In this document: piece by piece, positions 24,307 through 46,072 of the stretch
Layout: every line of letters begins with the position of its first letter
Numbering within the stretch: position 1 is the stretch's first letter
Origin: an uncultured Gammaproteobacteria bacterium
GTDB lineage: Bacteria > Patescibacteriota > Microgenomatia > Levybacterales > GWA1-39-11
Length of the DNA: 64,000 nt
Direction: 5' to 3'
Assembly: GCA_964472415.1 (NCBI GenBank)
Contig: CAYYLC010000002.1
Coordinates: 96,470-160,469 of the forward strand
Translations under genes and position numbers: made by a program
Notes under the pieces: model-generated
The model's database searches: none
What the model was told of the DNA's origin: nothing
Seen by the model: the letters and a program-made list of their open reading frames with translations, nothing else

Positions 24307-26442
24307 ATGAAAAAGGCGGTTATACTATTCGCGCTTTTTATCAGCGCACTCTTTTATCTTACGAGGGGAAATATCTCCTTTGCCCAATCATATGCTGATC
24401 AAGTTGCGACAGCATCCTCCAACACTGGTAGCCCGCAAACGCTTCCTCTGAACACGAACCCTGATGTGCCTCAAAATCTCTCAACGTATACACAAAGTGT
24501 TTTTATCGAGCTACTGGGCACTGCATCGTGTTTTTTGGGCGGGAAAAATATTATATATGGAGACACGAAATGCCTCGGAATAGATCCTGAGACAAAAAAA
24601 CTTACCTATGTAGAGGATTCCGGAGGTCTCACCGGCATGATGGGAGACATGATCGCCTATACATTTTCTATCCCAGCGTCTTCGTCTGACTATGTGAGAT
24701 ATATTGCGGGTAATTTCGGAATCGCACAAGACACAACCGCCCAGGAAGCTGAAGGGGAAGTAGGCCTCACAAAAGGAGCCGGATTTGACCAGCTCAGACC
24801 GATCCTGCCACTCTGGACCACCATGAGAAACCTCACCTACCTTATGTTTGTGATTGTATTTATCATCCTCGGACTGGGAATCATGTTCCGCCTTCAAATA
24901 GACCCGCGGGCGGTTATGACTATCCAAAGCCAGATCCCGAAAATTGTTATCGCACTCGTTCTAATCACGTTCTCGTATGCCATCGCTGGATTTTTTGTCG
25001 ACATGATGTACCTCTCGCTCTACCTTATTATTGATATCTTTAGCGCTCATGGCATTGAAAAAACCGCATCACTTGCTGGAAATCCACTGGAAGCAGTAGG
25101 CGGAGTTGGCGGCATCGGTGGAATTTCGTGGGACGCCTCAAAAGGAGTCGCAGGAGTTATGAGCAACCTTTTTGATGGAAATACTTTCGCAGAAGTGATT
25201 CGATTTATTATTAATTCAGTCGCCGGAACGCTTTTGGGTGGTGCCATCGGCATGGTCGGGGGTCCCGTAGGAATGATCGTAGGAGGATTGATAGGCGGCA
25301 TTGGAGGAAATCTTCTAGGATTTATTCCTGGCTTAGGAGATCCGTTCACGCTTATTATTGGAGGGGTTGCCTGGCTTATTATCGTCATCGCGATGCTTAC
25401 CGCGCTCTTTCGACTCTGGTTTATCCTGATAAAAACATACATATTTATTCTTGTAAATATTATATTTGCGCCATTTTATATTTTATTTGGGCTCTTCCCC
25501 GGAAGCTCGCTCTCATTTGGCGGATGGGTCCGCTCATTAGTATCAAATTTAGCGGCATTTCCAGTTGTGCTGATGCTTTTTACGCTCGGGAAGGCGCTGC
25601 AGGATGGATTTATTGAGAGTCCTGGCGGATTCACTCCACCCTATGTCGGAGACCCAGGAGACATGAAGATATTTGCAGGACTCATCGGTCTGGGGATTAT
25701 TTTACTCGCACCAGAGGCAGTAAATATGACCAAGTCTATCTTTAAGGCTCCAGACTTCAAGTTTGGCGGTGCGATCGGACAGCCGCTCGGAACAGGACAA
25801 AAGATTGTCGGTAAGACACTGAGCGGAACCAAGAATGCCCTCTGGCATACAAATCCGTACACGAATGAGCCAAGCAGATTTAAGGCCGCAGTAAAAGAAC
25901 AATTCGGCGCAGGAACTGACAAGATTCCCGGCGTACGCAAGGTAAAGGATAAGTTTAATCAAAGATTTCCTTCATATAAAGCTCGACAGCAAGCAAGGGC
26001 AGATACAGCAGCAAAAAGAACCCAGGCAATAGAAAGAGAGTCTGAAAGGCTGAAAACAGAACATCCAGACTGGGGTACAGATCAAATAAGAGAAGATGCT
26101 GAGCGAAGAGTTAGTGAGAATGAGAAAAAAGAACAAGCAGAACAAAAAAACAAAAGCCTCGTGAGAAGAACTCTCCGAAAGGTCATAAGAAGAGGAGAAG
26201 GCGCTCAGCAAGGCGAAGACGAGACAACAACGGCTCCACCCCCATCAGGGCATCAACCTTCCGCCTCACCACATGCATGGAATAAGGAAGATCTTGATCG
26301 ATCAGTTGAAGAAGAATTTAAAAAACGGACAGCTGGTCAACCATACCTTAGCGCCACCGATAAAACACAGCTCCGCATAAATATCCGGGAAGAATTAATA
26401 AAGCGTGGACCAGACACTGACGACACTAGTGGAACCTCCTAA
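24307..26442 (+). CDS. VirB6/TrbL-like polytopic membrane protein (putative T4SS channel component)
   Basis: Signal peptide, ~170-aa exodomain, at least 6 TM helices with glycine-zipper runs (GGAIGMVGGPVGMIVGGLIGGIGGNLLG), and a long charged C-terminal tail, as in ConG/TcpH/TrbL. Confidence 0.45.
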   Translation: MKKAVILFALFISALFYLTRGNISFAQSYADQVATASSNTGSPQTLPLNTNPDVPQNLSTYTQSVFIELLGTASCFLGGKNIIYGDTKCLGIDPETKKLTYVEDSGGLTGMMGDMIAYTFSIPASSSDYVRYIAGNFGIAQDTTAQEAEGEVGLTKGAGFDQLRPILPLWTTMRNLTYLMFVIVFIILGLGIMFRLQIDPRAVMTIQSQIPKIVIALVLITFSYAIAGFFVDMMYLSLYLIIDIFSAHGIEKTASLAGNPLEAVGGVGGIGGISWDASKGVAGVMSNLFDGNTFAEVIRFIINSVAGTLLGGAIGMVGGPVGMIVGGLIGGIGGNLLGFIPGLGDPFTLIIGGVAWLIIVIAMLTALFRLWFILIKTYIFILVNIIFAPFYILFGLFPGSSLSFGGWVRSLVSNLAAFPVVLMLFTLGKALQDGFIESPGGFTPPYVGDPGDMKIFAGLIGLGIILLAPEAVNMTKSIFKAPDFKFGGAIGQPLGTGQKIVGKTLSGTKNALWHTNPYTNEPSRFKAAVKEQFGAGTDKIPGVRKVKDKFNQRFPSYKARQQARADTAAKRTQAIERESERLKTEHPDWGTDQIREDAERRVSENEKKEQAEQKNKSLVRRTLRKVIRRGEGAQQGEDETTTAPPPSGHQPSASPHAWNKEDLDRSVEEEFKKRTAGQPYLSATDKTQLRINIREELIKRGPDTDDTSGTS

Positions 26443-26516: not shown

Positions 26517-29500
26517 TTAGTCGAACAGGTCATCAAACACATCATCGATAAATATCATAAATGCCGCAGGAAGAACCTCTACTGCTATGTCACCCATGCT
26601 ATGAAGCGCATCCTCCCGGAATAAGTGCCACCGCGTAGTATTTGAGTGCTTCCTGATCCACTCAATATCTTCTTCAGAGAAAAACTGAGAATTTGGGATT
26701 TCAATCTCTTTTCCAGTTGCTGGATCCTCTATATATTGTGGCATAGACCGAAGCGCCTGATAAAATTTTCTTATCGTATGCGCATCCCACCGATCATCAA
26801 CGCTCGCCCTATTCCGGTGCGCCTTGAGCTGCGCTGCAAGCCCGGCCCGGCAGACATTTTTTAAAATTCTTGTTCGCGCATCCTGAGAGTTAAGATATCC
26901 TGCAAACGTTCCATGTTTTTCTTTTGGATTATACTCACCATCCCCTGTCCAAGCCCTTTTTTCTTTTTCATTTCCATCTTCATCTGCTGCCTTATACTTT
27001 AGTTTCCCTGCATACCAATCACGTCGAATAGAACCGATCACTACATCTCCGAACATCGCTTCTGCAAGATACATATCTTTATACTCATATTTTTCGCTTC
27101 CGTCTTTTACCGTACCGTCTTTATTAAATTCCACCGCAGTTCGCACTCTCATGCGCGTTAAAGCTCCATAATTTATCGCGTTGTTTGAAGAAAACGCATA
27201 TCGTCTTTTTTTAATAAATGTATCTTTTACGATTTCCTCAAATTTTGCCCTATCAAATTTCAAAACGCCCCAGTCATTTCGCTTTATGATTTCGTTAAAT
27301 TTGATGTCCTCTGTATCTAACACATCATGCCACACTTCTGACTGACGCTTAATACCGTTTGCTGCCCAGTCAGACTGTGTAAATCGAGGAAATCGCAGTA
27401 CATCGTATAACGCATCTTTCTGCTGCACGAGCCGCTCCTTCAAAGCTTTTTGTTCATCAGTTAAATTTTCATCCTTCGGCAAGCTATAGAGCTGAATATT
27501 TACCTTGTGAATATTGTCAAATACTTCCTGCACTGACTCGCCTGACTCTGTTCGTATCGCAAGCCACATATCAGGAGATAGCATTCGAAATATCTGCATA
27601 TCCTCAGGATTTCCGATAGGACCCGATGTTCTGGAGCCAGATTGACGCTCTCGATAGTACTGCATATACATTTTCGTCCATGCGTCATATCCTCGATAGT
27701 TCGTATCATTTCGCGCAGCAACTCCACTCCACCGTTGCTCCGACCAGGAGTTAATTTCTGCCCATTCCAAATTAATTCGTGACAGTTTTCGGTATTCCTC
27801 CACTGATAAATCTTGCCCATGCCTCTTTTTAAACTTTTCATATTGAGCCTTATCAGATCCTGTATGAAAACCCACAATTTTTGCAGCGGTTTGTTTTACA
27901 ATTTCTCGTACCAACACCTCACTCGTCTCTTCAGGGTTTGCCGATGGGAAAAAATTCAAATATTTTATAAGCGCTTTATCACTCGTTAATTTCCCATTTT
28001 CATCAAAAATAACTGTCCTGATTTTTGTTTGGGGGTCTATGTGATAAATCTTTTCACCTTCAAACCGATAATTTCCGTATTCGGTAAGCTCTTCGTCAAA
28101 ATCCATCCCCTTTATTGCCCGCACTGCATCACGAAAACCTTTTGCTGTATACAAAAGCGCATCAGGGGGCAATATGTTTCGTAAATTTTTCTCGTCTGAT
28201 AAATTTCTATATATTTGATTCATTATAAGAAGCGAGTCTCCTACTCTATTGTCTGCCTTTCCATCAGTATCCCTACTATACTCATCTGCCATCCGCAACA
28301 TATTTGCAAGCGTAGAACCAGATGTGTGATCATTCCTCGAATTTATTTCAACCAGCCTGTCAAACAAGTTAGAGTCGCTTGTCATCACCTGCTTATACGC
28401 CAAATCATTATTGCGCCGCACACCAAATAACCACGCCTCATTAATAACCTCGTTATACAAATGCTCTAATACCTGACCAGTATTTGGATCGCTGAAATAT
28501 CGCTGCTTGTTGTATTTCATTTCTACCAAATTAACTGGCCGAAAGAGTGTCTGAATAGCCACTTTGTCTAACGGACTCATGGGGTCATTCGGATTATCAT
28601 AATGAAGCTCAAGCATTTTATTTCTTACCCATTTCAAAAAGTTTTCTTCCTGAAAAATCACTTTTTTAACCTCCATTTTTTCTCGCCTTCCAGTTTCAGG
28701 ATTTATCTTCTCGACCTCTTCTGTTTCATCTTCAGAGCGAGTAAAAAGCGGATACGGCCCATTCGGAGACCAAATTTTCGCATCATCAGTCGCAATAATC
28801 CACAGTGCAAGCTCGCGGATATTTCCCGGCTCGCGCCCAAATATACTTTCATCAGCAAAATCTATATCCTCGTCAAAACTAAAATTCATCCCTCTTCTGT
28901 TTATCTTCTCTCCTCGCGCTAACCTTTTTGCGGCATCTTTCTCTTCTACACTTAGCTGCCTCTCCATCTGCTCTGTTGCTCTATTAAACAATCTAGACAT
29001 AAATTCACTCACATTCTGCTTGTAGCTATACACATTGTCATCATCATTGAGGCCTTCCCACCTTGTTAACTCCTCCTGAATATCTAGTGGATTCTGCCCG
29101 TAAGCTAAATTCGCCAAGTATCGGACATAGTCATCTTTAACATATGCAGCTTTAAAACGCTTAAACGCATCTTCATCATCCTCTGGAATATTTTGAATAC
29201 CCTCTAAAAATTCCTCATAACGCTTTTTTTCCATATTTGGATCTCCATCTGCTCCGCCCTCTATTGGAGGACTCCCTCGCTCAGCAAGGCTTCGAATTGC
29301 CTCTATCTCGTCTTCTGTGAGGTTCCTTTTCTTTTTTATTTCCTCAACCACCTTTTCCCATGCCCTTTTCGCGGCCTTAACACGATCAGGATCTGGAATT
29401 TTCGGAGCATCTTCTTTTTCTTTTCGCTCGATATCTCGCACTAATGCGGATAATCCTTTTTTCACATTGAGAGCCTCCCCGCTCGTAATTTTTCTCAATC

Positions 29501-30347
29501 GTTCAGAATATTCATCTCTATCTGGAATATCTCCTAATAACAGCGAAAGCATCAACTCCCCAGCTTTTCCACTCATTACCTGTCTTAAAGATTCCGCATC
29601 GATTTTTTCTGTTGAAGTGAGAAACGCATCGAATCGCTTTGGTTCATTTACGATTTTTTCAATCATCTGTATCTGACTCTCAAATCGCTTTGCACTTTCC
29701 GTAGTGCTTGAAAGATTTTCGCCCCGCATTGCTCTACCAAATTCCTGTTCAGTAAGTTTTCGACCAAATGCGTGCTCAAAAACAACCCGTGACGCCTGTG
29801 CCTCCTCAGCTGATAATCCTCTCTTTTTTCGCAGTGCCACAATCGCAGAAACGTCCTGCAATAATTCTTTGTCTTCAGATCTTGCCTCACCGAGCCGCTC
29901 TTCGACGACAACCTCATTTAAATACGCTGAAAAATTTCTGGCCCAGTTATCCGAAACCATCCCAAACTGCACACCTTTAGTAAGATCACCCTGGACACCT
30001 TCTAGAAATTTGTCGTCAATCTTATTTTGCCTCCCCGCAATTTGGACTTTCTTTGCTAATTCTTCTAAATAGGAGTTGTCTTTGAATCTATTTATGTCAA
30101 ATCTTGCAAACCCTCCTGCGGGCGCATCATTACCCATAAATCCAGGCTCTCTTTCGTCCCCTTTTTGCCGTTGAGATTCAACGCGTGATCTTGTTTCTCC
30201 CGCTTTATCCTGATGCTTTCCCCTCCTCTGTACAATTTCGGCGATTCTCGCTTCAGGATTTTTACTAACTGATCGTTCTGATTCTGCTTCCATAATGCTC
30301 CTACTTACAGGATATGTCAGCTCGGATGTATGTGTCAATCGCTCCAT
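26517..30347 (-). CDS. Giant hypothetical protein (1276 aa)
   Basis: Uninterrupted 3.8-kb ORF, highly charged, no TM or recognisable catalytic motif. Confidence 0.6.
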   Translation of the reverse strand: MERLTHTSELTYPVSRSIMEAESERSVSKNPEARIAEIVQRRGKHQDKAGETRSRVESQRQKGDEREPGFMGNDAPAGGFARFDINRFKDNSYLEELAKKVQIAGRQNKIDDKFLEGVQGDLTKGVQFGMVSDNWARNFSAYLNEVVVEERLGEARSEDKELLQDVSAIVALRKKRGLSAEEAQASRVVFEHAFGRKLTEQEFGRAMRGENLSSTTESAKRFESQIQMIEKIVNEPKRFDAFLTSTEKIDAESLRQVMSGKAGELMLSLLLGDIPDRDEYSERLRKITSGEALNVKKGLSALVRDIERKEKEDAPKIPDPDRVKAAKRAWEKVVEEIKKKRNLTEDEIEAIRSLAERGSPPIEGGADGDPNMEKKRYEEFLEGIQNIPEDDEDAFKRFKAAYVKDDYVRYLANLAYGQNPLDIQEELTRWEGLNDDDNVYSYKQNVSEFMSRLFNRATEQMERQLSVEEKDAAKRLARGEKINRRGMNFSFDEDIDFADESIFGREPGNIRELALWIIATDDAKIWSPNGPYPLFTRSEDETEEVEKINPETGRREKMEVKKVIFQEENFLKWVRNKMLELHYDNPNDPMSPLDKVAIQTLFRPVNLVEMKYNKQRYFSDPNTGQVLEHLYNEVINEAWLFGVRRNNDLAYKQVMTSDSNLFDRLVEINSRNDHTSGSTLANMLRMADEYSRDTDGKADNRVGDSLLIMNQIYRNLSDEKNLRNILPPDALLYTAKGFRDAVRAIKGMDFDEELTEYGNYRFEGEKIYHIDPQTKIRTVIFDENGKLTSDKALIKYLNFFPSANPEETSEVLVREIVKQTAAKIVGFHTGSDKAQYEKFKKRHGQDLSVEEYRKLSRINLEWAEINSWSEQRWSGVAARNDTNYRGYDAWTKMYMQYYRERQSGSRTSGPIGNPEDMQIFRMLSPDMWLAIRTESGESVQEVFDNIHKVNIQLYSLPKDENLTDEQKALKERLVQQKDALYDVLRFPRFTQSDWAANGIKRQSEVWHDVLDTEDIKFNEIIKRNDWGVLKFDRAKFEEIVKDTFIKKRRYAFSSNNAINYGALTRMRVRTAVEFNKDGTVKDGSEKYEYKDMYLAEAMFGDVVIGSIRRDWYAGKLKYKAADEDGNEKEKRAWTGDGEYNPKEKHGTFAGYLNSQDARTRILKNVCRAGLAAQLKAHRNRASVDDRWDAHTIRKFYQALRSMPQYIEDPATGKEIEIPNSQFFSEEDIEWIRKHSNTTRWHLFREDALHSMGDIAVEVLPAAFMIFIDDVFDDLFD

Positions 30348-30438
30348 AATGCCACCACTATACCGCGTTGTCCTGCGTTATGCCTGACAGCAATGTAACA
30401 CTTGCTTTACAGCAACTTTTCAGTGGTAATATATATAC

Positions 30439-31758
30439 ATGTCGCTTACTCCATTAAAATATTTTGAGTCGTTGTATCCTGAAAACACTCGAGAAAAAGA
30501 AATCCGAGAATATCTCGATTTTTTAAAAAAAGGGCTCTCAGTACAGGTTATCGGACTTCCCGGAATAGGAAAAAATAATTTACTTCGCCTGCTTGCATAC
30601 AATATCGATGCCAGGCGATATCACCTAAAAGAATATGAAAAATTTATGCATTTTGTGTACATCGACTCTGCTGAGGCGAAAAACAGGCCACAGATAGACC
30701 TTATTAAATTGATTCTTTCATCAATCGCATTTTCTCTAGGCGAGAGGAGTATGCTTGATGAATCACTAAAAATAAACACCCTCCTCCAAGAAGGTGTCAG
30801 CCTGAATGACGAATTTCTTATATTCCAGTATCTAAAAAAAGCGATAGATTACCTTACAATAGAAAAAAAGCTTTCCGTAGTTCTACTATTTGATAGATTT
30901 GATACGATCGCACCAAATCTTACTGAGGATTTCTTCTCAAACCTAAAAACGCTTCGCAATAACTCAAAATATCGATTTGGCGTTGTGTTTTCTCTCAAAA
31001 GACCGCTTGAAGAAACTGTTGATCCGCGCCTCATTTCAGATTTTTCCGATATCATTGCAAAGAACGAAATTTATGCATCGCTCTCTGACCCCATTGCGCT
31101 CAAATTCCGCACAGAATATATAGAAAAAGCTGCCAGAAATGCGCTCTCAAAAGATCTCCGCGAGAAAATCATTACGCTCACCGGCGGTCATGCAAAACTC
31201 ACCAAGCTCGCCTTTGAAAAAATCGTTTCTGAAAATAAACCCATAGATGATCTAAAGAAATACCTATTCAACCAACCTACTATAATAAGTGCACTTAATG
31301 AGCTCTGGGAGAGCTTGCTACCGAGCGAAAAATCTGCACTAAAAACCAGCTCAGCTCCCGATGACTCATATCTCGTAAAATCAGGCTTAGTTAAAAAAGG
31401 AAAAATTGTAATCCCACTCTTCTCAGAATTTATCGAAGGAAAAGATATCGAGACAAGCGAAAAAATAACATATGACAGCATAAAAAATGAAATAATAAAA
31501 GGAGACACTTCTATTTCGCATCTACTCTCTTCTTCTGAATTTAAACTCTTGAAATTTTTTATTGAGCACAACGAAAAAATTCTTACCAAAGATGAAATTA
31601 TCTCTATTATCTGGTCTGATCAAAGAACGCAAGAAGGAGTTACTGACCAAGCGCTTGACCAAGTCCTCTATAGGCTTCGGAAAAAAATTGAAAGAAACCC
31701 TAGTAATCCTCAATTTATCCATACTATAAAAGGCACGGGATATAAATTTACGAGTTAA
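30439..31758 (+). CDS. P-loop ATPase fused to C-terminal OmpR/PhoB-type winged-helix DNA-binding domain
   Basis: Walker A VIGLPGIGKNNLLRLL and Walker B-like VVLLFDRFD. C-terminus LTKDEIISIIW...ALDQVLYRLRKKIE...IHTIKGTGYKF matches trans_reg_C. Confidence 0.6.
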   Translation: MSLTPLKYFESLYPENTREKEIREYLDFLKKGLSVQVIGLPGIGKNNLLRLLAYNIDARRYHLKEYEKFMHFVYIDSAEAKNRPQIDLIKLILSSIAFSLGERSMLDESLKINTLLQEGVSLNDEFLIFQYLKKAIDYLTIEKKLSVVLLFDRFDTIAPNLTEDFFSNLKTLRNNSKYRFGVVFSLKRPLEETVDPRLISDFSDIIAKNEIYASLSDPIALKFRTEYIEKAARNALSKDLREKIITLTGGHAKLTKLAFEKIVSENKPIDDLKKYLFNQPTIISALNELWESLLPSEKSALKTSSAPDDSYLVKSGLVKKGKIVIPLFSEFIEGKDIETSEKITYDSIKNEIIKGDTSISHLLSSSEFKLLKFFIEHNEKILTKDEIISIIWSDQRTQEGVTDQALDQVLYRLRKKIERNPSNPQFIHTIKGTGYKFTS

Positions 31759-31798
31759 TTTCTTGACTTTATAGCAACTCCCCTCATATCATAAATAT

Positions 31799-33268
31799 AT
31801 GAAACGATTCCTCGCACTACTGGGTGGATTTTTATTTTCCTTTACACTCTGTGTCGCATTTCTTCCTCCTCAAAGCTCCGAAGCGCAACAAGAACCAATC
31901 TCCCCAGAGACGTCAGAAAATACTGAGACATCAGAAGACACACCTACCACAAACTGTGGTGGTGAAAACTGGACTATTGACCCCTGCCCACTAGAAATTG
32001 ACGGAAATACAGAGAAAGTTACGATCAAATTTTTTGGTCTTGATGAAGACGTAGACTGGCGCACCTGCTCTATCCGAAAAGGGTGCGATTTGGCACGAGA
32101 CAAAGCAAAAGAAATAGGGGCATTTGAAAATGGAGTTTTGACCATTGTAGTCTGTGGCGCAAACGAAGGAAAACTAAAAGAAGTAGGGGATGAGGGATGT
32201 GGCGATGATGACTACTTTCACGAAGGACGCGTGTATCAGATGGCGCTCTTTGAAGATGAAGAGCAAGAGATAAAAGGACCCATTGCTTCATTTTTTGTAA
32301 ATCACTATTACCCCAAAATAGCCGTTAACAACGGCGCAAGTAGCAATGGCATCCTAGAAGGAGCAAATAGTTTTCTCGAGGTAAAAGTGTTTGGAGACTT
32401 ACGCCGAGGCGGCGGCAATCGCAATAACTATCAAATAGTCGTTGAAGGAAAGGATAACTATGGAAACACCTACAAGCAAGATGAATGCATAGAGGTTAAA
32501 AGTACAGAGGGCAATTCAGCATTTTTTTCCAGGAATCAAGATAAGGAGGGCGAAACTGGAAGATCCCTCAATAAAGGAAAATACGTTATAAAAGTAAATG
32601 AACAGGTCAATGAAGGCACACTCGGCAAGCTCAAGACACTGGCAGACAAGTGTAACGGTGGCTTCACCTACTGGCATATCAACATCGAAATTGATGAAGT
32701 CGGAAATATCATCGGCACCCCCCCCTTCTGCTCCCCAAGCGAAACCACTGGTATATCAATTGATAATGATGTATGCATTCAAGATCCAAATATAAGCGAC
32801 GTTGGAAAATATAAAGATTTTATCGATTCGCTCTTTGAAGGCAGTGAAGTTCCGCTTCCGTGCGCTGACACTCCAGAGAATGTAGCAGGCAAGGGATTTT
32901 GTGGCATGGTAGATACCGCAATCGGCACCATCCCCACAAATTTCCAGGGCTTTGTAAATAGACTCTTTACGATCGTTCTTTCTGTCGCAGGCGTATCAGC
33001 ACTTGGCCTCATCATCTATGGCGGGTATACTTATATGACCTCTCGAGGCGACACTGAAAAAATCAAACATGGGCGAGAAATCATCACAGCTGCCATTATC
33101 GGACTCTTGTTTATCATATTTTCTTTTGTAATACTACAAGTAATAACCGGAGAGATTTTACGAATTCCAGGATTTAACAATCCAGAATATAGCCCAGAGA
33201 CTGGAGTGGATAGGGTTGATGATGGAACGGTGCCAGGAAGCGAACTGCCACCAGAACTATTTCAATAA
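31799..33268 (+). CDS. VirB2/TrbC-like pilin-domain protein with ~400-aa N-terminal extracellular extension
   Basis: Signal peptide, Cys-containing exodomain, then C-terminal two-TM module LIIYGGYTYMTSRGDTEKIKHGREIITAAIIGLLFIIF that shares the signature of the three downstream pilin-like ORFs. Confidence 0.5.
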   Translation: MKRFLALLGGFLFSFTLCVAFLPPQSSEAQQEPISPETSENTETSEDTPTTNCGGENWTIDPCPLEIDGNTEKVTIKFFGLDEDVDWRTCSIRKGCDLARDKAKEIGAFENGVLTIVVCGANEGKLKEVGDEGCGDDDYFHEGRVYQMALFEDEEQEIKGPIASFFVNHYYPKIAVNNGASSNGILEGANSFLEVKVFGDLRRGGGNRNNYQIVVEGKDNYGNTYKQDECIEVKSTEGNSAFFSRNQDKEGETGRSLNKGKYVIKVNEQVNEGTLGKLKTLADKCNGGFTYWHINIEIDEVGNIIGTPPFCSPSETTGISIDNDVCIQDPNISDVGKYKDFIDSLFEGSEVPLPCADTPENVAGKGFCGMVDTAIGTIPTNFQGFVNRLFTIVLSVAGVSALGLIIYGGYTYMTSRGDTEKIKHGREIITAAIIGLLFIIFSFVILQVITGEILRIPGFNNPEYSPETGVDRVDDGTVPGSELPPELFQ

Positions 33269-33270
33269 TT

Positions 33271-33603
33271 ATGCAAGAATATATAGCACAACTGAGAGTT
33301 CCGGGAGCCAACGGAACTCCAATCGAGATACGACCACCAGAAAATGTCCCTCAAGGAGGAGAAGGAATGTTAGAAAAGATTCTCTCACTCGGTATCCAGG
33401 TCTTTCTCATAGTGGTAATCATCGCAGCACTCTTCTATCTCGTATGGGCCGGCATCAGATGGGCGCAGTCAGGAGGAGATTCTTCAAAGCTTCAGGCAGC
33501 ACGGCAACAAATCGTATTTGCAATTATCGGAATCGTTGTTGCATTTCTTGGATTTGCCATCATAACATTCATGGGTGGAATTTTCGGCGTAAGCCTTCTA
33601 TAA
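33271..33603 (+). CDS. T4SS pilin-like protein (VirB2/TrbC-like family)
   Basis: TM1 - WAGIRWAQSGGDSSKLQAARQQIVFAIIGIVVAFLGF - TM2. Paralogous motif x-[ST]-[SQ]-GGD-x-x-K-x-x-x-A[RK]-x-x-I-x-x-A-I-[IV]-G. Confidence 0.55.
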   Translation: MQEYIAQLRVPGANGTPIEIRPPENVPQGGEGMLEKILSLGIQVFLIVVIIAALFYLVWAGIRWAQSGGDSSKLQAARQQIVFAIIGIVVAFLGFAIITFMGGIFGVSLL

Positions 33604-33612
33604 AACTCCTTA

Positions 33613-34131
33613 TTGACAAGAATTATGAAAGCTGTAACAATAGTTAAAAGCATTATGAAAAGACTAGTTGCCCTTCTCGCTGCACCGCTTACACTTATTG
33701 CCCCTCAACTTGTCTATGCGCAAGAAAGTGATCTGGATCTTTGTCCTGAAACTCAATTTAACATCCTTTGCAAAATCGAAACAGGAGATTTTGGTGGAAT
33801 CCTCGGAACCGCAATTGTAATTATGTTTATCGTTGCAATCATCATCGCGCTCCTCTGGCTTATATTAGGAGGCATTAAGTGGATCACTTCTGGAGGAGAC
33901 TCTAGTAAAGTAGAAGGCGCACGAAATCAGATCATCGCAGCAGTTATCGGGCTCGTCGTTGTGTTTCTTTCGTACTTTATCCTGAATTTCGTGTTAACAC
34001 TCTTTGGGATCCCTGGGGTAGGCGGCTTAAAAATCCCAACAATTAAGCCGATTGTTGAGGGAAGTAGCGCAGGAGGTTCAGTTAATGATGGCATTGATAC
34101 TATAAGAGATCGAGTTGAAAATCAACGGTAA
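33613..34131 (+). CDS. T4SS pilin-like protein (VirB2/TrbC-like family), paralog
   Basis: Signal peptide, then ILGGIKWITSGGDSSKVEGARNQIIAAVIGLVVVFL. Confidence 0.55.
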   Translation: MTRIMKAVTIVKSIMKRLVALLAAPLTLIAPQLVYAQESDLDLCPETQFNILCKIETGDFGGILGTAIVIMFIVAIIIALLWLILGGIKWITSGGDSSKVEGARNQIIAAVIGLVVVFLSYFILNFVLTLFGIPGVGGLKIPTIKPIVEGSSAGGSVNDGIDTIRDRVENQR

Positions 34132-34152
34132 TAAAACCATCTCCTCAAAATT

Positions 34153-34455
34153 ATGCCTTGGGACTCATGTATAGATCCATCCACCGGAATAGCGACTCTT
34201 CGCTGCATTCCAGTTGTTATAAAAAACCTCGTAAACTGGGCGCTCATTTTTGCGGGAGTTGTCGCACTCTTTCTCATCGTCTACGCAGGATTTAAATTCG
34301 TAACCAGTCAAGGAGACTCCACACAGGTAGACAGTGCAAAAAAAACGCTTACCTATGCAATCGTCGGACTACTTCTGATCCTACTCTCTTTCGCAATTCT
34401 AAACCTAATAGCAGGCCTTACTGGAGTGGATCAAATCACAAACCCTGCATTCTAA
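34153..34455 (+). CDS. T4SS pilin-like protein (VirB2/TrbC-like family), paralog
   Basis: YAGFKFVTSQGDSTQVDSAKKTLTYAIVGLLLILL. Confidence 0.55.
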   Translation: MPWDSCIDPSTGIATLRCIPVVIKNLVNWALIFAGVVALFLIVYAGFKFVTSQGDSTQVDSAKKTLTYAIVGLLLILLSFAILNLIAGLTGVDQITNPAF

Positions 34456-36851: not shown

Positions 36852-36979
36852 ATTATTCTCCTTGCCCCTTTTCACACTACCCTCAAATTATCACATAGTT
36901 TGCACTACTCTGATACGCTTGATTTGAAAATTTTCACGGGATAAGCTGTGTAGGTACGCCAAAGGCGTTATCATTTGTT

Positions 36980-38104: not shown

Positions 38105-38737
38105 ATGGCAAAGAAGCAAATAAAATCAACAACACAAGGCTTTACTGAGATTGTCGATATCGTAGAAGATGTCGTGCTTTTAAAAAACAAGCGCGCGTGT
38201 ATGCTTATAGAGGTGTCTTCTGTAAACTTTTTTCTGCTTGCAGCAGACGAACAAAATGCGCGCGTGTATGGCTACATGTCCCTCATAAACTCTCTCTCTT
38301 TTGCAATCCAGATCTTAATCGTTTCAAGGAAAGTGGACATGGATACATACATTGAGACGATTGATAAGAAAATATCCACTGTTCAACACCAGCAAACAAA
38401 GGAGCATTTGATGTATTACAAAGAATTTATTCTAGAATTAGTAAAAGAAGAAGGGCTTTTAGATAAAAAAGTATACCTTGTTATCCCCTACTCATACCTT
38501 GAGGGGAACTCGGGCGCTGCGCAAAAAAACAAAACAGGGACAGTTAGCTTTGGCGACCAAGCAAAAGCAGCGCTGCTTTCTAAATCTCAGCTAATAATGT
38601 CTCAGGTGCAACGCATGGGACTAACTGCAAGACGCCTTGGCCACGAAGAACTTATTAAGGTGTTTTATGAAGTCCTCAATGACGACCAAATAAACCTGGA
38701 TTTTGAATCGAATGATATAAAAAATATAATTCTATAA
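38105..38737 (+). CDS. Hypothetical protein resembling the VirB4 N-terminal domain
   Basis: IVDIVEDVVLLKNKRACMLIEVSSVNFFLLAADEQNARVYGYMSLINSLSFAIQILIVSRKVD resembles the conserved start of TraC/VirB4 N-domains. Lies between the VirB3-like and VirB4 genes. Confidence 0.4.
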   Translation: MAKKQIKSTTQGFTEIVDIVEDVVLLKNKRACMLIEVSSVNFFLLAADEQNARVYGYMSLINSLSFAIQILIVSRKVDMDTYIETIDKKISTVQHQQTKEHLMYYKEFILELVKEEGLLDKKVYLVIPYSYLEGNSGAAQKNKTGTVSFGDQAKAALLSKSQLIMSQVQRMGLTARRLGHEELIKVFYEVLNDDQINLDFESNDIKNIIL

Positions 38738-38740
38738 TTT

Positions 38741-40999
38741 ATGTTTGGACTCGGCAAAAAAACACAACAACAAACACAACAGGTACCCCCGACTAATACC
38801 CCTGTGCAACAAAATCCGCAACAACAAGGACAGACTCCTACTACCCCAAACCCGCAACCCCCTCACCAGACACCTCCTCCGCCACAAGTACCCCAAAAAG
38901 GGCGAAAGCCTTCTCCGAACGCACATATGGAAGAACTCAAGAATGGATCTGTTTCCATTGTGGACATCATTGCCCCATCTTCAGTGGAAGTAGATTTCCG
39001 GCACATTCGCGTCGGAGACAAATTCTATCGTACCTTTTTTGTGGTTGACTATCCTCGCCAAGTTTCTCCGAACTGGCTGTCTATCCTTATCGATCACAAA
39101 GAGACAATGAACATTTCTATGTACCTATATCCGGTAGAAAGCAAAGATGTGCTATCAAATCTACGACGAAAGATCGCTGAAATGGAGGCAACACTCCAGT
39201 CAGATGCCCAAAACGGTGTCATCCCGGACCCAAAAATCCAAGCCTCTCTTGAAGACGCGATCTCGCTCCGTGAAGAACTTGCCCGAGGACTTGAGCGGTT
39301 TTTCCAGTTCGGGCTCTATGTCACAATTTCCGCAGAGAACATTGAAGCACTCAATATGAAGTCAAAAGAACTTATCTCACTACTTGCCTCAAACCTACTC
39401 GTCGTAAAGCCCGCAACACTCCAAATGGAAGAAGGCTTTAAAACCACCCTGCCTCAAGGAAATGATAAGCTTCTCATCACTCGCAACATGGACACAACCT
39501 CTGTTGCATCCACATTTCCATTCACCGGCTATGAAATCTCTCATCCCAATGGGATACTATACGGAATAAACACGCTTAATAACTCACTGGTTATCGTAGA
39601 CAGATTTTCTCTTGAGAATGCAAACGAAGTTGTGTTTGGAAAATCTGGATCTGGAAAGTCTTTCCTCATAAAGCTCGAACTCATGCGTCAATATATGTTT
39701 GATGCAGAAATCATCATCATCGATCCAGAGGACGAATACAAGACGCTCTGTCAATCACTCGGCGGGGAATATATTACATTCTCTAAAGATTCGGAGGTAA
39801 AAATAAACCCATTCGCGCTTCTTCTTGACGACACCTCTGAAAACCAACTGAGCTTAAAGATTCTTGCAGTCCATGGCCTATTAAAGTCCATGCTTGGCGA
39901 AATGACGGCAACCCAAGAAGCGATTCTCGACCGTGCAGTAGTTCTTGCCTACAAACAAAAAGGCATTACACCAAATCCGTCAACCTATAAAAATGAGCCG
40001 CCAATTTTAGAAGATTTATATAAAACCCTCCTCAACATGGAGGAGGCAGAGGCAAAGGAGCTTGCATTCCGTCTCGAAAAATATGTAAAGGGAGGCTTTT
40101 CAGGCCTTTTCAACCACCAAACAAACTATGATGTCCACAATAAAATGACCGTATTCTCTCTCAGGCAGCTTGAGGATGTGCTGAGGCCAATTGCCATGCA
40201 TGTTATTTTAGATTTTATATGGTCGCGTGTCAGGACGAAACTCAAAAAAAGAATTCTCGTCGTTGATGAGGCCTGGTATATGATGCGCTACCCAGACTCT
40301 GCCGCATTTCTTCAAGGAATCGCGAAGCGCGCACGAAAATACTATCTAGGCGTGACCACGCTCACACAAGACATCCAAGACTTTCTATCGAGTGATTATG
40401 GACGTGCAATTCTCTCCAACTCTTCAATTCAAATCCTTCTCAAACAAGGCTCTTCAGAAGTGGAAACGCTCGCCAAAACACTAAACCTATCAGGCGGAGA
40501 GAAACAATACCTACTAACCGCACAGGTCGGAGAAGGGCTACTCTTTGCGGGACAGAATCATGTAACCGCACAGTTTATTTCTTCTCAATTCGAGTATGAT
40601 CTTATCACCTCCAAACCTCAAGACATATTGAATCAGCAATCCGAAGATACTCCGCCTCCGCCACCACTAGAACCAGAACCACTTACCCCTTCACAGGGTG
40701 ATACCTTCGCTGTGCCTGGCCAATCAAGCACACCGCAACAACCTTTCCCGCAAACACCAAGCGCTCCTCCTCTACCATCCACCACTCCAGAAGTGGGGCT
40801 AAATGCAAATGTCATGCCAGACCAACTTCAACCACAAACAACTGGGATCAATACCACAAATCCACAGAGCACCCCGCCCATACCTCAAAGAGGCTTTACA
40901 GCGCCCACACAAAACGTGCTAGAAGGCTCGCAAGTTCCCGCCCAACCGCAACAATCGATAACAAACAACTCTGCCACAGATCAACCCACTCGTTCATAA
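38741..40999 (+). CDS. virB4: VirB4/TrbE/CagE-family T4SS ATPase
   Basis: Walker A VVFGKSGSGKSFLIK, IIIIDPEDEY, Walker B RILVVDEAWYMM, GVTTLTQDIQDF. N- and C-termini are Gln/Pro-rich low complexity. Confidence 0.85.
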   Translation: MFGLGKKTQQQTQQVPPTNTPVQQNPQQQGQTPTTPNPQPPHQTPPPPQVPQKGRKPSPNAHMEELKNGSVSIVDIIAPSSVEVDFRHIRVGDKFYRTFFVVDYPRQVSPNWLSILIDHKETMNISMYLYPVESKDVLSNLRRKIAEMEATLQSDAQNGVIPDPKIQASLEDAISLREELARGLERFFQFGLYVTISAENIEALNMKSKELISLLASNLLVVKPATLQMEEGFKTTLPQGNDKLLITRNMDTTSVASTFPFTGYEISHPNGILYGINTLNNSLVIVDRFSLENANEVVFGKSGSGKSFLIKLELMRQYMFDAEIIIIDPEDEYKTLCQSLGGEYITFSKDSEVKINPFALLLDDTSENQLSLKILAVHGLLKSMLGEMTATQEAILDRAVVLAYKQKGITPNPSTYKNEPPILEDLYKTLLNMEEAEAKELAFRLEKYVKGGFSGLFNHQTNYDVHNKMTVFSLRQLEDVLRPIAMHVILDFIWSRVRTKLKKRILVVDEAWYMMRYPDSAAFLQGIAKRARKYYLGVTTLTQDIQDFLSSDYGRAILSNSSIQILLKQGSSEVETLAKTLNLSGGEKQYLLTAQVGEGLLFAGQNHVTAQFISSQFEYDLITSKPQDILNQQSEDTPPPPPLEPEPLTPSQGDTFAVPGQSSTPQQPFPQTPSAPPLPSTTPEVGLNANVMPDQLQPQTTGINTTNPQSTPPIPQRGFTAPTQNVLEGSQVPAQPQQSITNNSATDQPTRS

Positions 41000-44133: not shown

Positions 44134-44851
44134 TTACAACACAAACGAAAGTCCGAGTTTTATCCGAAGGAATCTTCCTTTTATTTTAGTTGGAGCGCTG
44201 TTGTTACTTATCGCCACTGTCTTTCTTGTCTTAACGTTTTTTGCAAAAAATACTACAGACCCTCACCCTCACACACCTGATAATATTAATACTACTCCTA
44301 CTGCAGTGCAGCCCATAAACTTCTCTATAACTAACACGTCACCAGCAGACAACGAATCAGATGTTTATCCGGGAGAAATATCCATAACATTTACCACAAA
44401 CACTCCCCTTCTCTCTCAAGAAGATTACTTATTTCGCATGACTCCATCCCCAGAAGAAACCCCTATTATTCAAAACGAATTCCCCTCGCAAGAGATATCC
44501 TATGGAATTGTGGGAAATCTTTCCCCCGACACAACATATACCGTAGGTATTTATAATACTTCAAGCCTTCTGGTCCACTCCTGGTCATTTACCACATCAA
44601 GTGAGACGCCAGAGTCATCCTCTCGCGCAGTAAAGCTTGAACAAGAGAACGCAATAAGAAATTTTTATCCACTATTCTATGACCTTCCCTACGAAACAGA
44701 TACATTTAAAATCGACTATACTGACAGGCTTACATTAGAGGTTATTATGTATTCTGGAAACCAAACAAACACAGCACCTGCAATAGAATCCTGGATACAA
44801 GACCGCGGCGTAGATCCTGCAACCCACACGATAAACTATATTCAAAACTAA
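44105..44851 (+). CDS. Bitopic membrane hypothetical protein
   Basis: One N-terminal TM (LPFILVGALLLLIATVFLVLTFF), Thr/Pro-rich exodomain. Confidence 0.4.
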   Translation: MDTHFSDNNNYNTNESPSFIRRNLPFILVGALLLLIATVFLVLTFFAKNTTDPHPHTPDNINTTPTAVQPINFSITNTSPADNESDVYPGEISITFTTNTPLLSQEDYLFRMTPSPEETPIIQNEFPSQEISYGIVGNLSPDTTYTVGIYNTSSLLVHSWSFTTSSETPESSSRAVKLEQENAIRNFYPLFYDLPYETDTFKIDYTDRLTLEVIMYSGNQTNTAPAIESWIQDRGVDPATHTINYIQN

Positions 44852-45942: not shown

Positions 45943-46072
45943 ATATATTTATTAGTATTAGTAGTAGTATAGGTGGACAAGTGGATATACGCAAGAACGC
46001 GTGCGTGAAAACATGTTGAAAAGCTGTGTAAAAAATTGTGTAAAGAATGTTGATATGAAAAGTACGTCATTT
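45943..46072. promoter_or_regulatory. Putative oriC segment (dnaA-dnaN intergenic) with DnaA-box-like sites and AT-rich stretch
   Basis: GGTGGACAA and GTGGATATA (45972-45989) approximate TGTGGATAA. AT-rich ATATATTTATTAGTATTAGTAGTAGTAT at 45943-45970. Confidence 0.45.

What the first reader, a model, noticed from the sequence alone, without database searches (positions are those of the whole stretch)
30439..31758. P-loop ATPase with C-terminal OmpR/PhoB winged helix placed to regulate the pilin operon
The domain order is ATPase first and trans_reg_C last, the reverse of AfsR/SARP-type regulators and with no receiver domain. The gene is immediately upstream of, and co-oriented with, the pilin array. 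It is plausibly an NTP-dependent transcriptional activator of the T4SS genes.
Basis: seen in the sequence. Interest (0 to 1): 0.55.

Follow-up and report, generated by a model that had tools for sequence, protein, structure and literature searches.

The report
Receiver-less ATPase-fold OmpR-type regulator beside pilins
This gene encodes a real but uncharacterised one-protein transcription regulator (an ORC/Cdc6- or STAND-like nucleotide-binding module followed by an OmpR/PhoB DNA-binding domain) that is conserved beside the type IV secretion pilin genes of Levybacteria; its most likely DNA target is a repeat array in its own upstream, divergent promoter region, not the pilin promoter.

Summary
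ORF 30439-31758 (+) encodes 439 aa. The C-terminal Trans_reg_C domain is strong (E=2e-19). The N-terminal 335 aa fold with high confidence as an AAA+ module (nucleotide-binding domain, lid, small winged helix) closest to Cdc6/ORC4 and PAB2304. No ATPase HMM reaches its threshold, and Walker A is non-canonical (GKN here; GR[ST] in about 30% of homologues).

The family is essentially Levybacteria-specific. In 45 of 47 loci the gene lies directly upstream of a co-oriented pilin array.

The conserved cis-element lies upstream of the gene, at 30383-30422: heptads nnTnACA at an 11-bp period (CTTGATA-N4-CCTyACA-N4-CCTyACA in relatives), which is the OmpR/PhoB/SARP site geometry. Heptad 1 lies exactly 20 bp from the -10 box of the divergent 1276-aa gene in 33 of 34 loci. 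Its distance to the regulator's ATG varies from 10 to 524 nt.

Best model: a receiver-less regulator that oligomerises on the heptads, activates the divergent gene and autoregulates, with read-through into the pilin genes. Nucleotide binding would act as a switch rather than as a motor.

This is a new variant of STAND-type regulators, of moderate interest. Binding was not tested, and a look-alike element occurs in unrelated plasmid-like contigs.

The parts
30439..31758 (+). Regulator gene (439 aa): nucleotide-binding oligomerisation-type module followed by an OmpR/PhoB winged helix
   Evidence: ORF. 324 full-length homologues. Structure models.
30553..30576 (+). P-loop / Walker A, GLPGIGKN (residues 39-46), with Asn in place of Ser/Thr
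   Evidence: Alignment A1. Motif census in 113 homologues with a recognisable motif: GKS 58, GR[ST] 33, GKN 20.
30880..30903 (+). Walker B-like strand LLFDRFD (residues 148-155). D152 is invariant and the next residue is Arg/Lys, so there is no adjacent catalytic acid
   Evidence: Strand beta3 in the models.
31183..31197 (+). GGHAK motif (residues 249-253) at the start of a lid helix. G250 and H251 are invariant. This is a candidate sensor-2 / GxP-like position
   Evidence: The functional assignment is inferred from position in the model only.
31456..31755 (+). OmpR/PhoB-type winged helix-turn-helix (residues 340-439). The recognition helix is TDQALDQVLYRLRKKIE
   Evidence: Pfam E=2.2e-19. Alignment to PhoB. 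Foldseek TM about 0.75 to the RstA, VicR, PhoB and OmpR DNA-binding domains.
30383..30422 (.). Array of four heptads at an 11-bp period: CCTGACA gcaa TGTAACA cttg CTTTACA gcaa CTTTTCA. This is the candidate operator
   Evidence: TNACA-N6-TNACA-N6-TNACA occurs once in the 64-kb window and in 0 of 100 shuffles. The homologous element CTTGATA-N4-CCTyACA-N4-CCTyACA was found 27 times in 690 kb of related loci, 25 of them upstream of the regulator; shuffles gave about 0.15.
30357..30362 (-). -10 box (TATAGT) of the divergent 1276-aa gene, 9 nt before its ATG and exactly 20 bp from heptad 1. No -35-like hexamer is present
   Evidence: Sequence. 33 of 34 loci have a TAnnnT hexamer exactly 20 bp from heptad 1.
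26517..30347 (-). Divergent gene for a 1276-aa soluble protein of unknown function. It is the likely primary target of the heptad array
   Evidence: No Pfam, NCBIfam or PDB sequence match. No TM segment. The gap from its ATG to heptad 1 is 32-36 nt in 39 loci.
30427..30432 (+). -10-like TAATAT 6 nt before the regulator's ATG, consistent with a leaderless mRNA. Heptad 3 (TTTACA) sits near the -35 position
   Evidence: Sequence. Homologous loci show the same -10-before-ATG layout. Inferred, not mapped.
31763..31792 (+). Sigma70-like promoter of the pilin array (TTGACT-18-TATCAT), ending 6 nt before the ATG at 31799. It contains no heptad repeat
   Evidence: The equivalent promoter is present in most loci.
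31799..34455 (+). Four co-oriented T4SS_pilin genes downstream. No terminator lies between the regulator gene and them, so read-through is possible
   Evidence: Pfam PF18895. No terminator-like site in 31700-31800.
36869..36947 (+). Conserved non-coding block upstream of PrgI/VirB4. It begins TTTCACA-N4-CCTCAAA, a heptad-like pair. It is a possible second target, but this is uncertain
   Evidence: In six loci of one subclade a heptad element lies in this region instead; it is complete (three heptads) in L012 and L044.

Best explanation
The gene encodes a receiver-less, one-component transcription regulator. Its N-terminal 335 residues form an ORC/Cdc6- or STAND-like module (P-loop domain, helical lid, small winged helix). 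Its C-terminal 100 residues form an OmpR/PhoB DNA-binding domain. The proposed mechanism has three steps, all inferred. First, several protomers bind head-to-tail to the heptad array (nnTnACA, 11-bp period) at 30383-30422, with the N-terminal module supplying oligomerisation. Second, from that position (about -33 to -61 relative to the divergent start) they activate the promoter of the divergent 1276-aa gene, which lacks a -35 box. Third, they also sit on or next to the regulator's own core promoter, so the gene autoregulates, and its transcript can read through into the pilin array 40 nt downstream. The pilin array also has its own promoter, which looks constitutive. Nucleotide binding probably acts as a conformational or oligomerisation switch, as in AfsR and MalT. 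Hydrolysis is unlikely in this protein because its catalytic motifs are degenerate. What is shown: the domain folds, the conservation and geometry of the repeat array, and the synteny. What is inferred: that this protein binds the array, the sign of regulation, and nucleotide binding.
For: - Domains: Trans_reg_C at E=2e-19. Confident models and Foldseek hits to Cdc6, ORC4, PAB2304 and MuB for the N-terminal part, and to PhoB, RstA and OmpR for the C-terminal part.
- DNA-contact residues: the equivalents of PhoB D196, R201 and R203 are invariant (D407, R412, R414). The alpha2-alpha3 loop, which in PhoB contacts sigma (own knowledge), is almost invariant: W392, G400, V401, D403.
- Element specificity: the strict pattern CTTGA[CT][AT]-N4-nnTnA[CT]A-N4-nnTnA[CT]A occurs 27 times in 690 kb. 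Of these, 25 lie within 650 nt upstream of the regulator gene on the same strand, and 2 lie upstream of PrgI/VirB4. Shuffles give about 0.15.
- Window copy: it is unique in 64 kb and absent from 100 shuffles.
- Middle heptad: it lies in a promoter spacer yet is as conserved as the flanking heptads.
- Fixed geometry: a -10 hexamer lies exactly 20 bp from heptad 1 in 33 of 34 loci, and the divergent ATG lies 32-36 nt away in 39 loci.
- Distant homologue: a 340-aa Shapirobacteria relative (23% identity) shares the recognition-helix motif ALDQIVYRL and has the same layout (divergent ORF, 32 nt, CTTGATA-N4-GATAACA). Distant homologues with other recognition helices have no such element.
- Synteny: a pilin array lies downstream in 45 of 47 loci.
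Against: - No binding data exist. The link between the protein and the array rests on adjacency and on site geometry.
- The array tracks the divergent gene rather than the regulator. Its distance to the regulator's ATG varies from 10 to 524 nt. A 23S_rRNA_IVP gene is inserted between them in at least L011, and similar small ORFs sit there in other loci. In L036 the regulator is 2.3 kb away and inverted.
- The heptads resemble the local extended -35 consensus (CTTGAyw), so part of the signal is ordinary promoter sequence.
- The same 29-nt pattern occurs in 21 plasmid-like metagenome contigs (VirD4, ParA, Replic_Relax, H-NS). No homologue of the regulator and no OmpR-type domain was found in the fragments held.
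- The whole region, including RNR and NrdR, is syntenic across the phylum, so adjacency alone is weak evidence of functional linkage.
- Walker A is degenerate: GKN here, GR[ST] in about 30% of homologues, and GIS in Roizmanbacteria relatives.
Confidence: 0.5

Rival explanations
1. One reading: an NTP-hydrolysing activator that binds just upstream of the pilin array (31759-31798) and/or upstream of 24307, and directly switches on the T4SS pilin operon.
For: The gene is immediately upstream of, and co-oriented with, the pilin array in 45 of 47 loci. The conserved alpha2-alpha3 loop is compatible with an activator.
Against: Region 31759-31798 contains only a 10/12 sigma70-like promoter with a good -35 box, and homologous loci show no conserved repeat there. 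The region upstream of 24307 is a plain promoter as well. The heptad PWM finds nothing in either region. The catalytic motifs are degenerate.
Confidence: 0.12
2. The heptad array is not this protein's site. It is simply the architecture of a compact bidirectional promoter, or the site of another factor. The regulator's true targets lie elsewhere in the genome.
For: Heptad 1 equals the local extended -35 consensus. In the short-gap loci, heptad 3 supplies a TACAAT -10 box 18 nt downstream. The array stays with the divergent gene when the regulator is displaced. The same pattern occurs in plasmid-like contigs without a regulator homologue.
Against: The middle heptad lies in the spacer, where sigma70 promoters are not conserved, yet it is as conserved as the others. 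The 11-bp direct-repeat geometry fits OmpR/PhoB-type domains. The element is almost confined to this locus across 690 kb. It co-occurs with a distant homologue that shares the recognition helix.
Confidence: 0.25
3. The N-terminal module is a pseudo-ATPase. It binds no nucleotide and serves only as a constitutive oligomerisation scaffold, so the protein would be a signal-independent DNA-binding factor.
For: Only 58 of the 113 homologues with a recognisable motif have a canonical GK[ST]. K-to-R occurs in 34, S-to-N in 21, and K-to-I in Roizmanbacteria relatives. No acidic residue follows the Walker B Asp. No ATPase HMM reaches threshold.
Against: The glycine pattern GxPGxG, D152, and several invariant Arg/His residues (R59, R173, R188, R224, H251) are retained under strong constraint. 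Non-CPR relatives and the Shapirobacteria homologue keep a canonical GKS.
Confidence: 0.25
4. The protein is a component of an NTP-dependent conflict (defence) system of the nSTAND1/TCAD9 kind, not a regulator of the T4SS locus.
For: Distant relatives of the N-terminal module give weak nSTAND1/AAA_35 hits. Some are fused to Ser/Thr kinase, TCAD9 or TIR domains, or lie next to TCAD9 genes.
Against: The Levybacteria family has none of these partners within the 8 kb on either side in about 50 loci. Its context is a conserved chromosomal T4SS region near dnaA/dnaN.
Confidence: 0.04

Closest known systems
AfsR and other large SARPs (Streptomyces): OmpR-type DNA-binding domain + BTAD + NB-ARC-type NOD + TPR
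   Same: Both combine an OmpR/PhoB-type winged helix with a STAND-class nucleotide-binding oligomerisation module. SARP sites are heptad direct repeats at an 11-bp period overlapping the -35 region (own knowledge; AfsR box overlapping the -35 element in PMC10936776). ATP binding, not phosphorylation of a receiver, modulates activity.
   Different: The domain order is reversed here, with the DNA-binding domain last. There is no BTAD and no TPR sensor. The NOD is of the AAA_16/AAA_22/AAA_35/nSTAND1-like kind, and NB-ARC gives no hit. The protein is about half the size. Walker A is degenerate.
MalT / LAL regulators (STAND NOD + sensor repeats + C-terminal LuxR-type HTH)
   Same: The nucleotide-binding module comes first and the DNA-binding domain last. 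These are ATP-dependent oligomeric activators acting on repeated sites. MalT appears among the fold matches (8bob_C).
   Different: The DNA-binding domain here is OmpR/PhoB-type, not LuxR-type. There is no sensor or arm domain. The protein is 439 aa against about 900.
Orc1/Cdc6, ORC4 and DnaA-type initiators, and the archaeal ATPase PAB2304
   Same: These are the best fold matches: AAA+ base, lid and winged helix, with a DNA-binding element at the C-terminal end. They assemble on arrays of repeated sites. DnaA also acts as a transcription factor (own knowledge).
   Different: Sequence similarity is not significant. An additional OmpR-type domain is present. The genome has its own dnaA (46073-47413) at the GC-skew minimum, 14 kb away, so this protein is not the replication initiator.
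PhoB/OmpR-family response regulators
   Same: The DNA-binding domain is homologous (E about 1e-10 to PhoB). The candidate site has the pho-box-like geometry of 7-bp direct repeats separated by 4 bp.
   Different: There is no receiver domain, no phospho-acceptor and no adjacent histidine kinase.
nSTAND1 / AAA_35 NTPases of ternary conflict systems (Kaur et al. 2020, PMC7159879)
   Same: Distant relatives of the N-terminal module give weak hits to these models and share the NOD plus Trans_reg_C layout.
   Different: The Levybacteria proteins have no TCAD, kinase or TIR partners and sit in a conserved chromosomal T4SS region.

Membership tests
OmpR/PhoB winged-helix DNA-binding domain (Trans_reg_C, PF00486) | Profile match above the curated threshold, and the fold: N-terminal beta-sheet, three helices, C-terminal beta-hairpin wing | tested here: met
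   69.7 bits against a cutoff of 26.2. The model shows strands at 343-354, helices at 365-376, 384-391 and 403-417, and a hairpin at 427-437. Foldseek TM about 0.75 to PhoB, RstA and VicR.
Two-component response regulator (OmpR subfamily) | N-terminal receiver (CheY-like) domain with a phospho-acceptor Asp | tested here: not met
   No Response_reg hit. NCBIfam response regulator models align only to residues 333-438 and score far below their cutoffs.
SARP (AfsR/DnrI/ActII-ORF4) | N-terminal OmpR-type DNA-binding domain followed by a BTAD domain | tested here: not met
   The DNA-binding domain is C-terminal, and no BTAD hit was found in the 37 family members scanned.
AAA+ / STAND P-loop NTPases | ASCE P-loop fold with a helical lid (and a winged helix in STAND and Orc/Cdc6 proteins) | tested here: met
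   N-terminal model pLDDT 91.8. Foldseek hits to Cdc6 (E=1e-6), ORC4, PAB2304 (TM 0.56), MuB, RFC and MalT.
AAA+ / STAND P-loop NTPases | Canonical Walker A GxxxxGK[ST], and a Walker B with an acidic pair | tested here: not met
   The window protein has GLPGIGKN, and Walker B is D-R. About half of the family keeps GKS.
AAA+ / STAND P-loop NTPases | Sequence-profile membership in a curated family (AAA_16, AAA_22, AAA_35, NB-ARC, NACHT, nSTAND) | tested here: inconclusive
   AAA_16 and AAA_22 hit 23 of 37 members. No ATPase model reaches its threshold for the window protein, and the best E-values across the 37 members are only about 2e-4 (bit scores were not listed per member). NB-ARC gives no hit.
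AAA+ / STAND P-loop NTPases | Nucleotide binding or hydrolysis | not testable with these tools
   Requires biochemistry.
LAL / MalT regulators | C-terminal LuxR-type (GerE) HTH and a sensor super-helical domain | tested here: not met
   No GerE or TPR hits.
Transcription factor with a defined operator | A conserved, specific cis-element near the gene with geometry appropriate to the DNA-binding domain | tested here: met
   Heptads at an 11-bp period: 25 of 27 strict matches lie upstream of the gene, and the window copy is unique.
Transcription factor with a defined operator | Physical binding of the protein to that element | not testable with these tools
A look-alike element exists without the regulator in plasmid-like contigs.

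The most novel reading that the evidence does not exclude
A phylum-wide minimal regulator consisting only of a NOD and a winged helix, with no sensor repeats and decaying ATPase motifs, assembles head-to-tail on an 11-bp heptad array. From a rigidly spaced position (20 bp from the -10 box) it switches on a giant, signal-peptide-less orphan protein encoded beside the T4SS (a candidate T4SS substrate), together with itself and the pilin array. This would be the first regulator and operator pair defined for the T4SS island of CPR/Patescibacteria. The broader family of more than 1000 NOD-plus-OmpR proteins would then be an unrecognised class of one-component regulators.
Probability: 0.3. Interest if true: 0.65.

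Novelty: new variant of a known kind. Interest (0 to 1): 0.5.

Why it matters
CPR/Patescibacteria depend on T4SS-like machinery and pilin arrays for their host-attached lifestyle. The recent survey of their T4SS loci reports no regulator (PMC12102498). A conserved regulator with a predicted operator and a rigid promoter geometry gives a directly testable entry point into how these uncultured bacteria control that island. It also flags the divergent 1276-aa orphan protein as a co-regulated partner. More generally, the result shows that the NOD-then-OmpR layout, the mirror image of AfsR, is a widespread and uncharacterised class. It offers natural variants, from canonical to degenerate Walker A, for asking whether such regulators need nucleotide at all.

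Tried and rejected
Only sigma70-like promoters were found, both in the window and in about 45 homologous loci.
- A two-heptad PWM scan of the window. It has no power: 17 hits against 9-22 in shuffles. Only the three-heptad pattern is specific.
- Helical phasing of the array relative to the regulator's ATG. The distances (10-49 nt) showed no clean 11-bp classes by inspection, so the idea was dropped.
- A replication-initiator reading of the ORC/Cdc6-like fold. It was rejected because dnaA and dnaN lie at the GC-skew minimum 14 kb away.
- Rfam on 23-43 kb: no RNA family.
- Identity of the 1276-aa and 711-aa neighbours: no Pfam, NCBIfam or PDB sequence match.
- A profile search of the N-terminal module against PDB sequences. 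It returned only P-loop-level matches to ABC transporters, which is uninformative.
- Literature searches for this architecture or for a Patescibacteria T4SS regulator found nothing specific.
- A link between the plasmid-like contigs carrying the look-alike element and Levybacteria. Their gene content (H-NS, IS66, and a Burkholderiales label on one relative) points to other hosts, so they were not counted as support.
Full report
**Observation**

The ORF 30439-31758 (+) is real and encodes 439 aa. Trans_reg_C matches residues 363-437 at E=2.2e-19, well above the Pfam cutoff. OmpR-family response-regulator models and solved PhoB, OmpR, RstA and ToxR DNA-binding domains align only to the last ~100 residues. 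No receiver domain is present.

ATPase profiles are weak. AAA_16 scores 17 bits and AAA_35 scores 16.9 bits, both below their cutoffs, and NB-ARC does not hit. Among 37 family members, AAA_22 and AAA_16 recur in 23 (best E-values about 2e-4).

Structure prediction settles the fold. The full-length model has pLDDT 87.7 and the N-terminal 335 residues alone reach 91.8. The model shows:
- a five-stranded P-loop domain, with beta1 at 35-38, the P-loop at 39-46, and the Walker B strand at 146-152;
- a helical lid at 218-265;
- a small winged-helix-like bundle at 270-335;
- the OmpR domain at 340-439.

Foldseek places the N-terminal part nearest archaeal Cdc6 (1fnn, E=1e-6), ORC4 and Orc1/Cdc6. PAB2304 gives the best TM-score (0.56). 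MuB and RFC also match, and MalT appears further down the list. The C-terminal part superposes on the PhoB, RstA, VicR and OmpR DNA-binding domains at TM about 0.75.

The downstream ORFs 31799-34455 are four T4SS_pilin genes. They are followed by PrgI and a VirB4 split into two ORFs. The description is therefore correct, with one caveat: the ATPase call is fold-level only and the catalytic motifs are not canonical.

**ATPase motifs**

Walker A in this protein is GLPGIGKN. Among the 113 homologues with a recognisable motif, the two residues after the last glycine are KS in 58, R[ST] in 33, KN in 20, RN in 1 and KG in 1. Walker B is hhhhD-[RK]-x-[DE], with an invariant D152 and no adjacent acidic residue.

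Roizmanbacteria relatives have GxxxxGIS. Non-CPR relatives and a Shapirobacteria homologue keep GKS. Many other positions are invariant: R59, H71, E102-R103, R173, R188, R224 and G250-H251. The module is therefore under strong constraint even though catalysis appears dispensable. I infer a nucleotide-binding or purely oligomerising switch rather than a motor. This was not tested.

**Family and context**

A search of 5.8 billion proteins found 324 full-length homologues of about 440 aa, each with PF00486 as its only precomputed Pfam domain. Those that carry names are labelled Levybacteria.

A scan of one genome per species returned 54 loci. Nearly all are Levybacteria or Patescibacteria MAGs, although many records carry a placeholder "Gammaproteobacteria" title. 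Gene order is conserved: RNR, NrdR, DUF5667, a 711-aa membrane protein, a large reverse-strand ORF, the regulator, the pilin array, then PrgI and VirB4. A pilin gene lies within 1.5 kb downstream on the same strand in 45 of 47 loci, and PrgI/VirB4 follows in 22 of 26. Because the whole region is syntenic, including unrelated housekeeping genes, adjacency alone is weak evidence of functional linkage.

The architecture is not rare. A profile of the N-terminal module against 1.84 billion cluster representatives gave 1207 hits at E<1e-3 and 627 at E<1e-10. Of ten sampled distant hits, seven carry Trans_reg_C and five of these are similar-sized (435-541 aa) proteins. One has a Ser/Thr kinase in front, one lies in a 1784-aa TCAD9/TIR protein, and some lack the winged helix. 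Weak nSTAND1 and AAA_35 hits occur among them. A Roizmanbacteria member sits among glycosyltransferase genes, and another lies next to TCAD9 genes.

**Where the cis-element is**

The 40-nt gap before the pilin array is TTGACT-18-TATCAT followed by 6 nt and the ATG. The equivalent gap in other loci is usually 26-60 nt and has the same layout, with no repeat. The region upstream of 24307 is a CTTGAyT/TTGACw-N17-18-CATACT promoter in all loci. Neither region looks activator-dependent.

Upstream of the regulator the picture is different. About 40 loci share CTTGATA-N4-CCTyACA-N4-CCTyACA. A strict degenerate pattern for it matches 27 times in 690 kb on both strands. Of these matches, 25 lie within 650 nt upstream of the regulator on its strand, and the other two lie upstream of PrgI/VirB4 in L012 and L044. 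Shuffles give about 0.15 matches.

The window's version consists of four heptads at an exact 11-bp period: CCTGACA, TGTAACA, CTTTACA and CTTTTCA (30383-30422). The core pattern TNACA-N6-TNACA-N6-TNACA occurs once in the window and in none of 100 shuffles. Positions T3, A5, C6 and A7 of the second and third heptads are 88-95% conserved, even though the second heptad lies in what would be a promoter spacer. Seven-bp direct repeats separated by 4 bp are the classic geometry of pho boxes and SARP sites (own knowledge; AfsR box overlapping the -35 element in PMC10936776).

**Geometry**

The array is positioned relative to the divergent large ORF, not relative to the regulator. The gap between that ORF's ATG and heptad 1 is 32-36 nt in all 39 loci examined. 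In contrast, the distance from heptad 3 to the regulator's ATG ranges from 10 to 524 nt.

In several loci (L011, L021, L023, L033-35, L041, L043) the array lies 286-524 nt upstream of the regulator. In L011 the intervening ORF is a 23S_rRNA_IVP gene on the same strand, and in L036 one follows the array; L033 holds a similar small ORF that was not scanned. In L036 the array remains 33 nt from the large ORF even though the regulator is 2.3 kb away and inverted.

A TAnnnT hexamer on the divergent strand lies exactly 20 bp from heptad 1 in 33 of 34 loci, and at 21 bp in the remaining one. No other offset scores. That hexamer lies 6-9 nt before the divergent ATG, which implies a leaderless mRNA. 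No TTGACA-like hexamer lies 17 bp upstream of it in the loci inspected by eye (WIN, L003, L040). The reverse complement of heptad 1 occupies roughly -33 to -39 instead. This is the signature of an activator-dependent promoter.

On the regulator's side the layout varies between loci:
- in the short-gap loci, heptad 1 serves as the -35 box and heptad 3 as a TACAAT -10 box of a leaderless promoter;
- in the others, including the window, a second -10-like box lies 6-7 nt before the ATG, and a heptad sits at or near its -35 position.

**Linking the protein to the array**

This link is inferred. Several observations support it:
- the DNA-binding domain is of the type that reads such repeats;
- the PhoB base- and phosphate-contact equivalents D407, R412 and R414 are invariant;
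- the recognition helix is virtually invariant across the family, in step with the conserved heptad core;
- the 340-aa Shapirobacteria homologue (23% identity) keeps the motif ALDQIVYRL and has the same layout (divergent ORF, 32 nt, CTTGATA-N4-GATAACA), although no T4SS genes are nearby;
- distant homologues with different recognition helices have no such element.

Other observations count against it. Heptad 1 equals the local extended -35 consensus. The array follows the divergent gene rather than the regulator. An exact-pattern scan of metagenomes returned 28 loci. Seven are Levybacteria-type. In six of these a regulator homologue starts 12-17 nt downstream (174 nt in the seventh), and where upstream flank was available a large ORF starts 33-35 nt upstream. 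The other 21 belong to one family of plasmid-like contigs that encode VirD4, ParA, SprT, Replic_Relax and H-NS. These carry no regulator homologue and no OmpR-type domain in the fragments held. Their hosts are probably not CPR. The resemblance even includes a -10 box 20 bp from heptad 1 (seen in L061), and it remains unexplained.

**A possible second target**

Upstream of PrgI/VirB4 lies a ~80-bp block conserved across the phylum (window 36869-36947). It begins TTTCACA-N4-CCTCAAA and ends with TTTTCACGTTATAC in most loci. In six loci of one subclade, matches to the heptad-element PWM of varying strength lie in this region; a complete three-heptad element is present in L012 and L044. The block's register differs from that of the main array, so I leave it as only a possible second target.

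**Model and verdict**

The most likely reading is a receiver-less one-component regulator. Its ORC/Cdc6- or STAND-like module drives head-to-tail assembly on the heptads. From there it activates the divergent 1276-aa gene, which encodes a soluble orphan protein with no TM segment. It also autoregulates, and read-through into the pilin genes is possible because no terminator intervenes. The pilin array also has its own promoter, which looks constitutive.

By analogy with AfsR, where ATP binding relieves inhibition by the NOD, nucleotide binding would gate activity. The degenerate motifs make hydrolysis unlikely here.

The published survey of Patescibacteria T4SS loci mentions no such regulator, and literature searches found no description of this architecture. 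I rate it a new variant of a known kind (STAND-type transcription regulators), with moderate interest.

Noticed in passing
window 30348-30438, 31759-31798 and 36948-36979; homologous loci L001-L053: Promoters in this lineage place a TAnnnT -10 box only 6-9 nt before the ATG of the regulator, the divergent large ORF, the first pilin gene and (in many loci) PrgI. This implies leaderless mRNAs. The -35 consensus is extended to CTTGAyw, with an 18-nt spacer.
   Followed up: partly
window 36869-36947 (plus a small hairpin ACGCC-aaa-GGCGT at 36956-36968): A roughly 80-bp non-coding block upstream of PrgI/VirB4 is conserved across loci whose regulators are only 40-67% identical. It contains TTTTCAC twice, about 62 nt apart, with TTTTGAC between them. 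Several loci add a 5' hairpin before the ATG. There is no Rfam match.
   Followed up: partly
window 44848-47413: dnaN (44848-45942, -) and dnaA (46073-47413, -) sit at the minimum of cumulative GC skew. The T4SS island therefore lies within about 15 kb of the replication origin, as reported for Patescibacteria in PMC12102498.
   Followed up: partly
window 38105-40999: VirB4 is split into two adjacent ORFs. The 210-aa ORF matches the N-terminal region of VirB4 models, and the 752-aa ORF carries the TraG P-loop domain. tblastn reports the two parts as separate hits a few nt apart in several homologous loci (e.g. L001, L012, L042), so the split is probably not a sequencing error; ORF structure there was not inspected.
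   Followed up: no
L011 7553-7930; L036 3890-4234; a similar small ORF in L033 7491-7919 (not scanned); L021, L023, L034, L035, L041, L043: A 23S rRNA-intervening-sequence protein gene (PF05635, a four-helix bundle) lies between the heptad array and the regulator gene in L011 and follows the array in L036. L033 holds a similar small ORF that was not scanned. In L021, L023, L034, L035, L041 and L043 the array also lies 286-480 nt upstream of the regulator, suggesting a comparable insertion; those gaps were not inspected.
   Followed up: partly
L060-L064, L066-L072, L074-L078, L080, L081, L083-L085, L087 4200-4228: A near-identical element (CTTGATATTAGCCTCACACAATCCTTACA) recurs in plasmid-like soil-metagenome contigs, sometimes twice per contig. 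It sits in front of varied small ORFs. These contigs encode two VirD4-type coupling proteins, ParA, SprT-like, Replic_Relax, H-NS and IS66. No homologue of the regulator is present. Whether this reflects shared ancestry with conjugative elements or convergence is unknown.
   Followed up: partly
window 26517-30347 (-) and 24307-26442 (+): Two large conserved orphan genes flank the regulator's upstream side. One encodes a soluble 1276-aa protein with a conserved E-L-T-P N-terminus and no known domain. The other encodes a 711-aa protein with a signal-like N-terminus and about 10 hydrophobic segments, which may be a VirB6-like channel component.
   Followed up: partly
L002 8001-9330; L045 8001-9309: In two loci the regulator homologue aligns in two overlapping pieces in different frames. 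This suggests a frameshift, caused either by pseudogenisation or by an assembly error.
   Followed up: no
Record titles of L001, L003, L005-L012 and others: Many MAG records that clearly carry the Levybacteria-type locus are titled 'uncultured Gammaproteobacteria bacterium' (one is titled Bacteriovorax). These appear to be placeholder or wrong taxon labels in the public records.
   Followed up: no
P0274, P0172 (Roizmanbacteria-type homologues): In these relatives the Walker A lysine is replaced by isoleucine (GMKRVGIS). This extends the trend of decaying ATPase motifs in CPR members of the wider family. One of them lies among glycosyltransferase genes rather than T4SS genes.
   Followed up: partly
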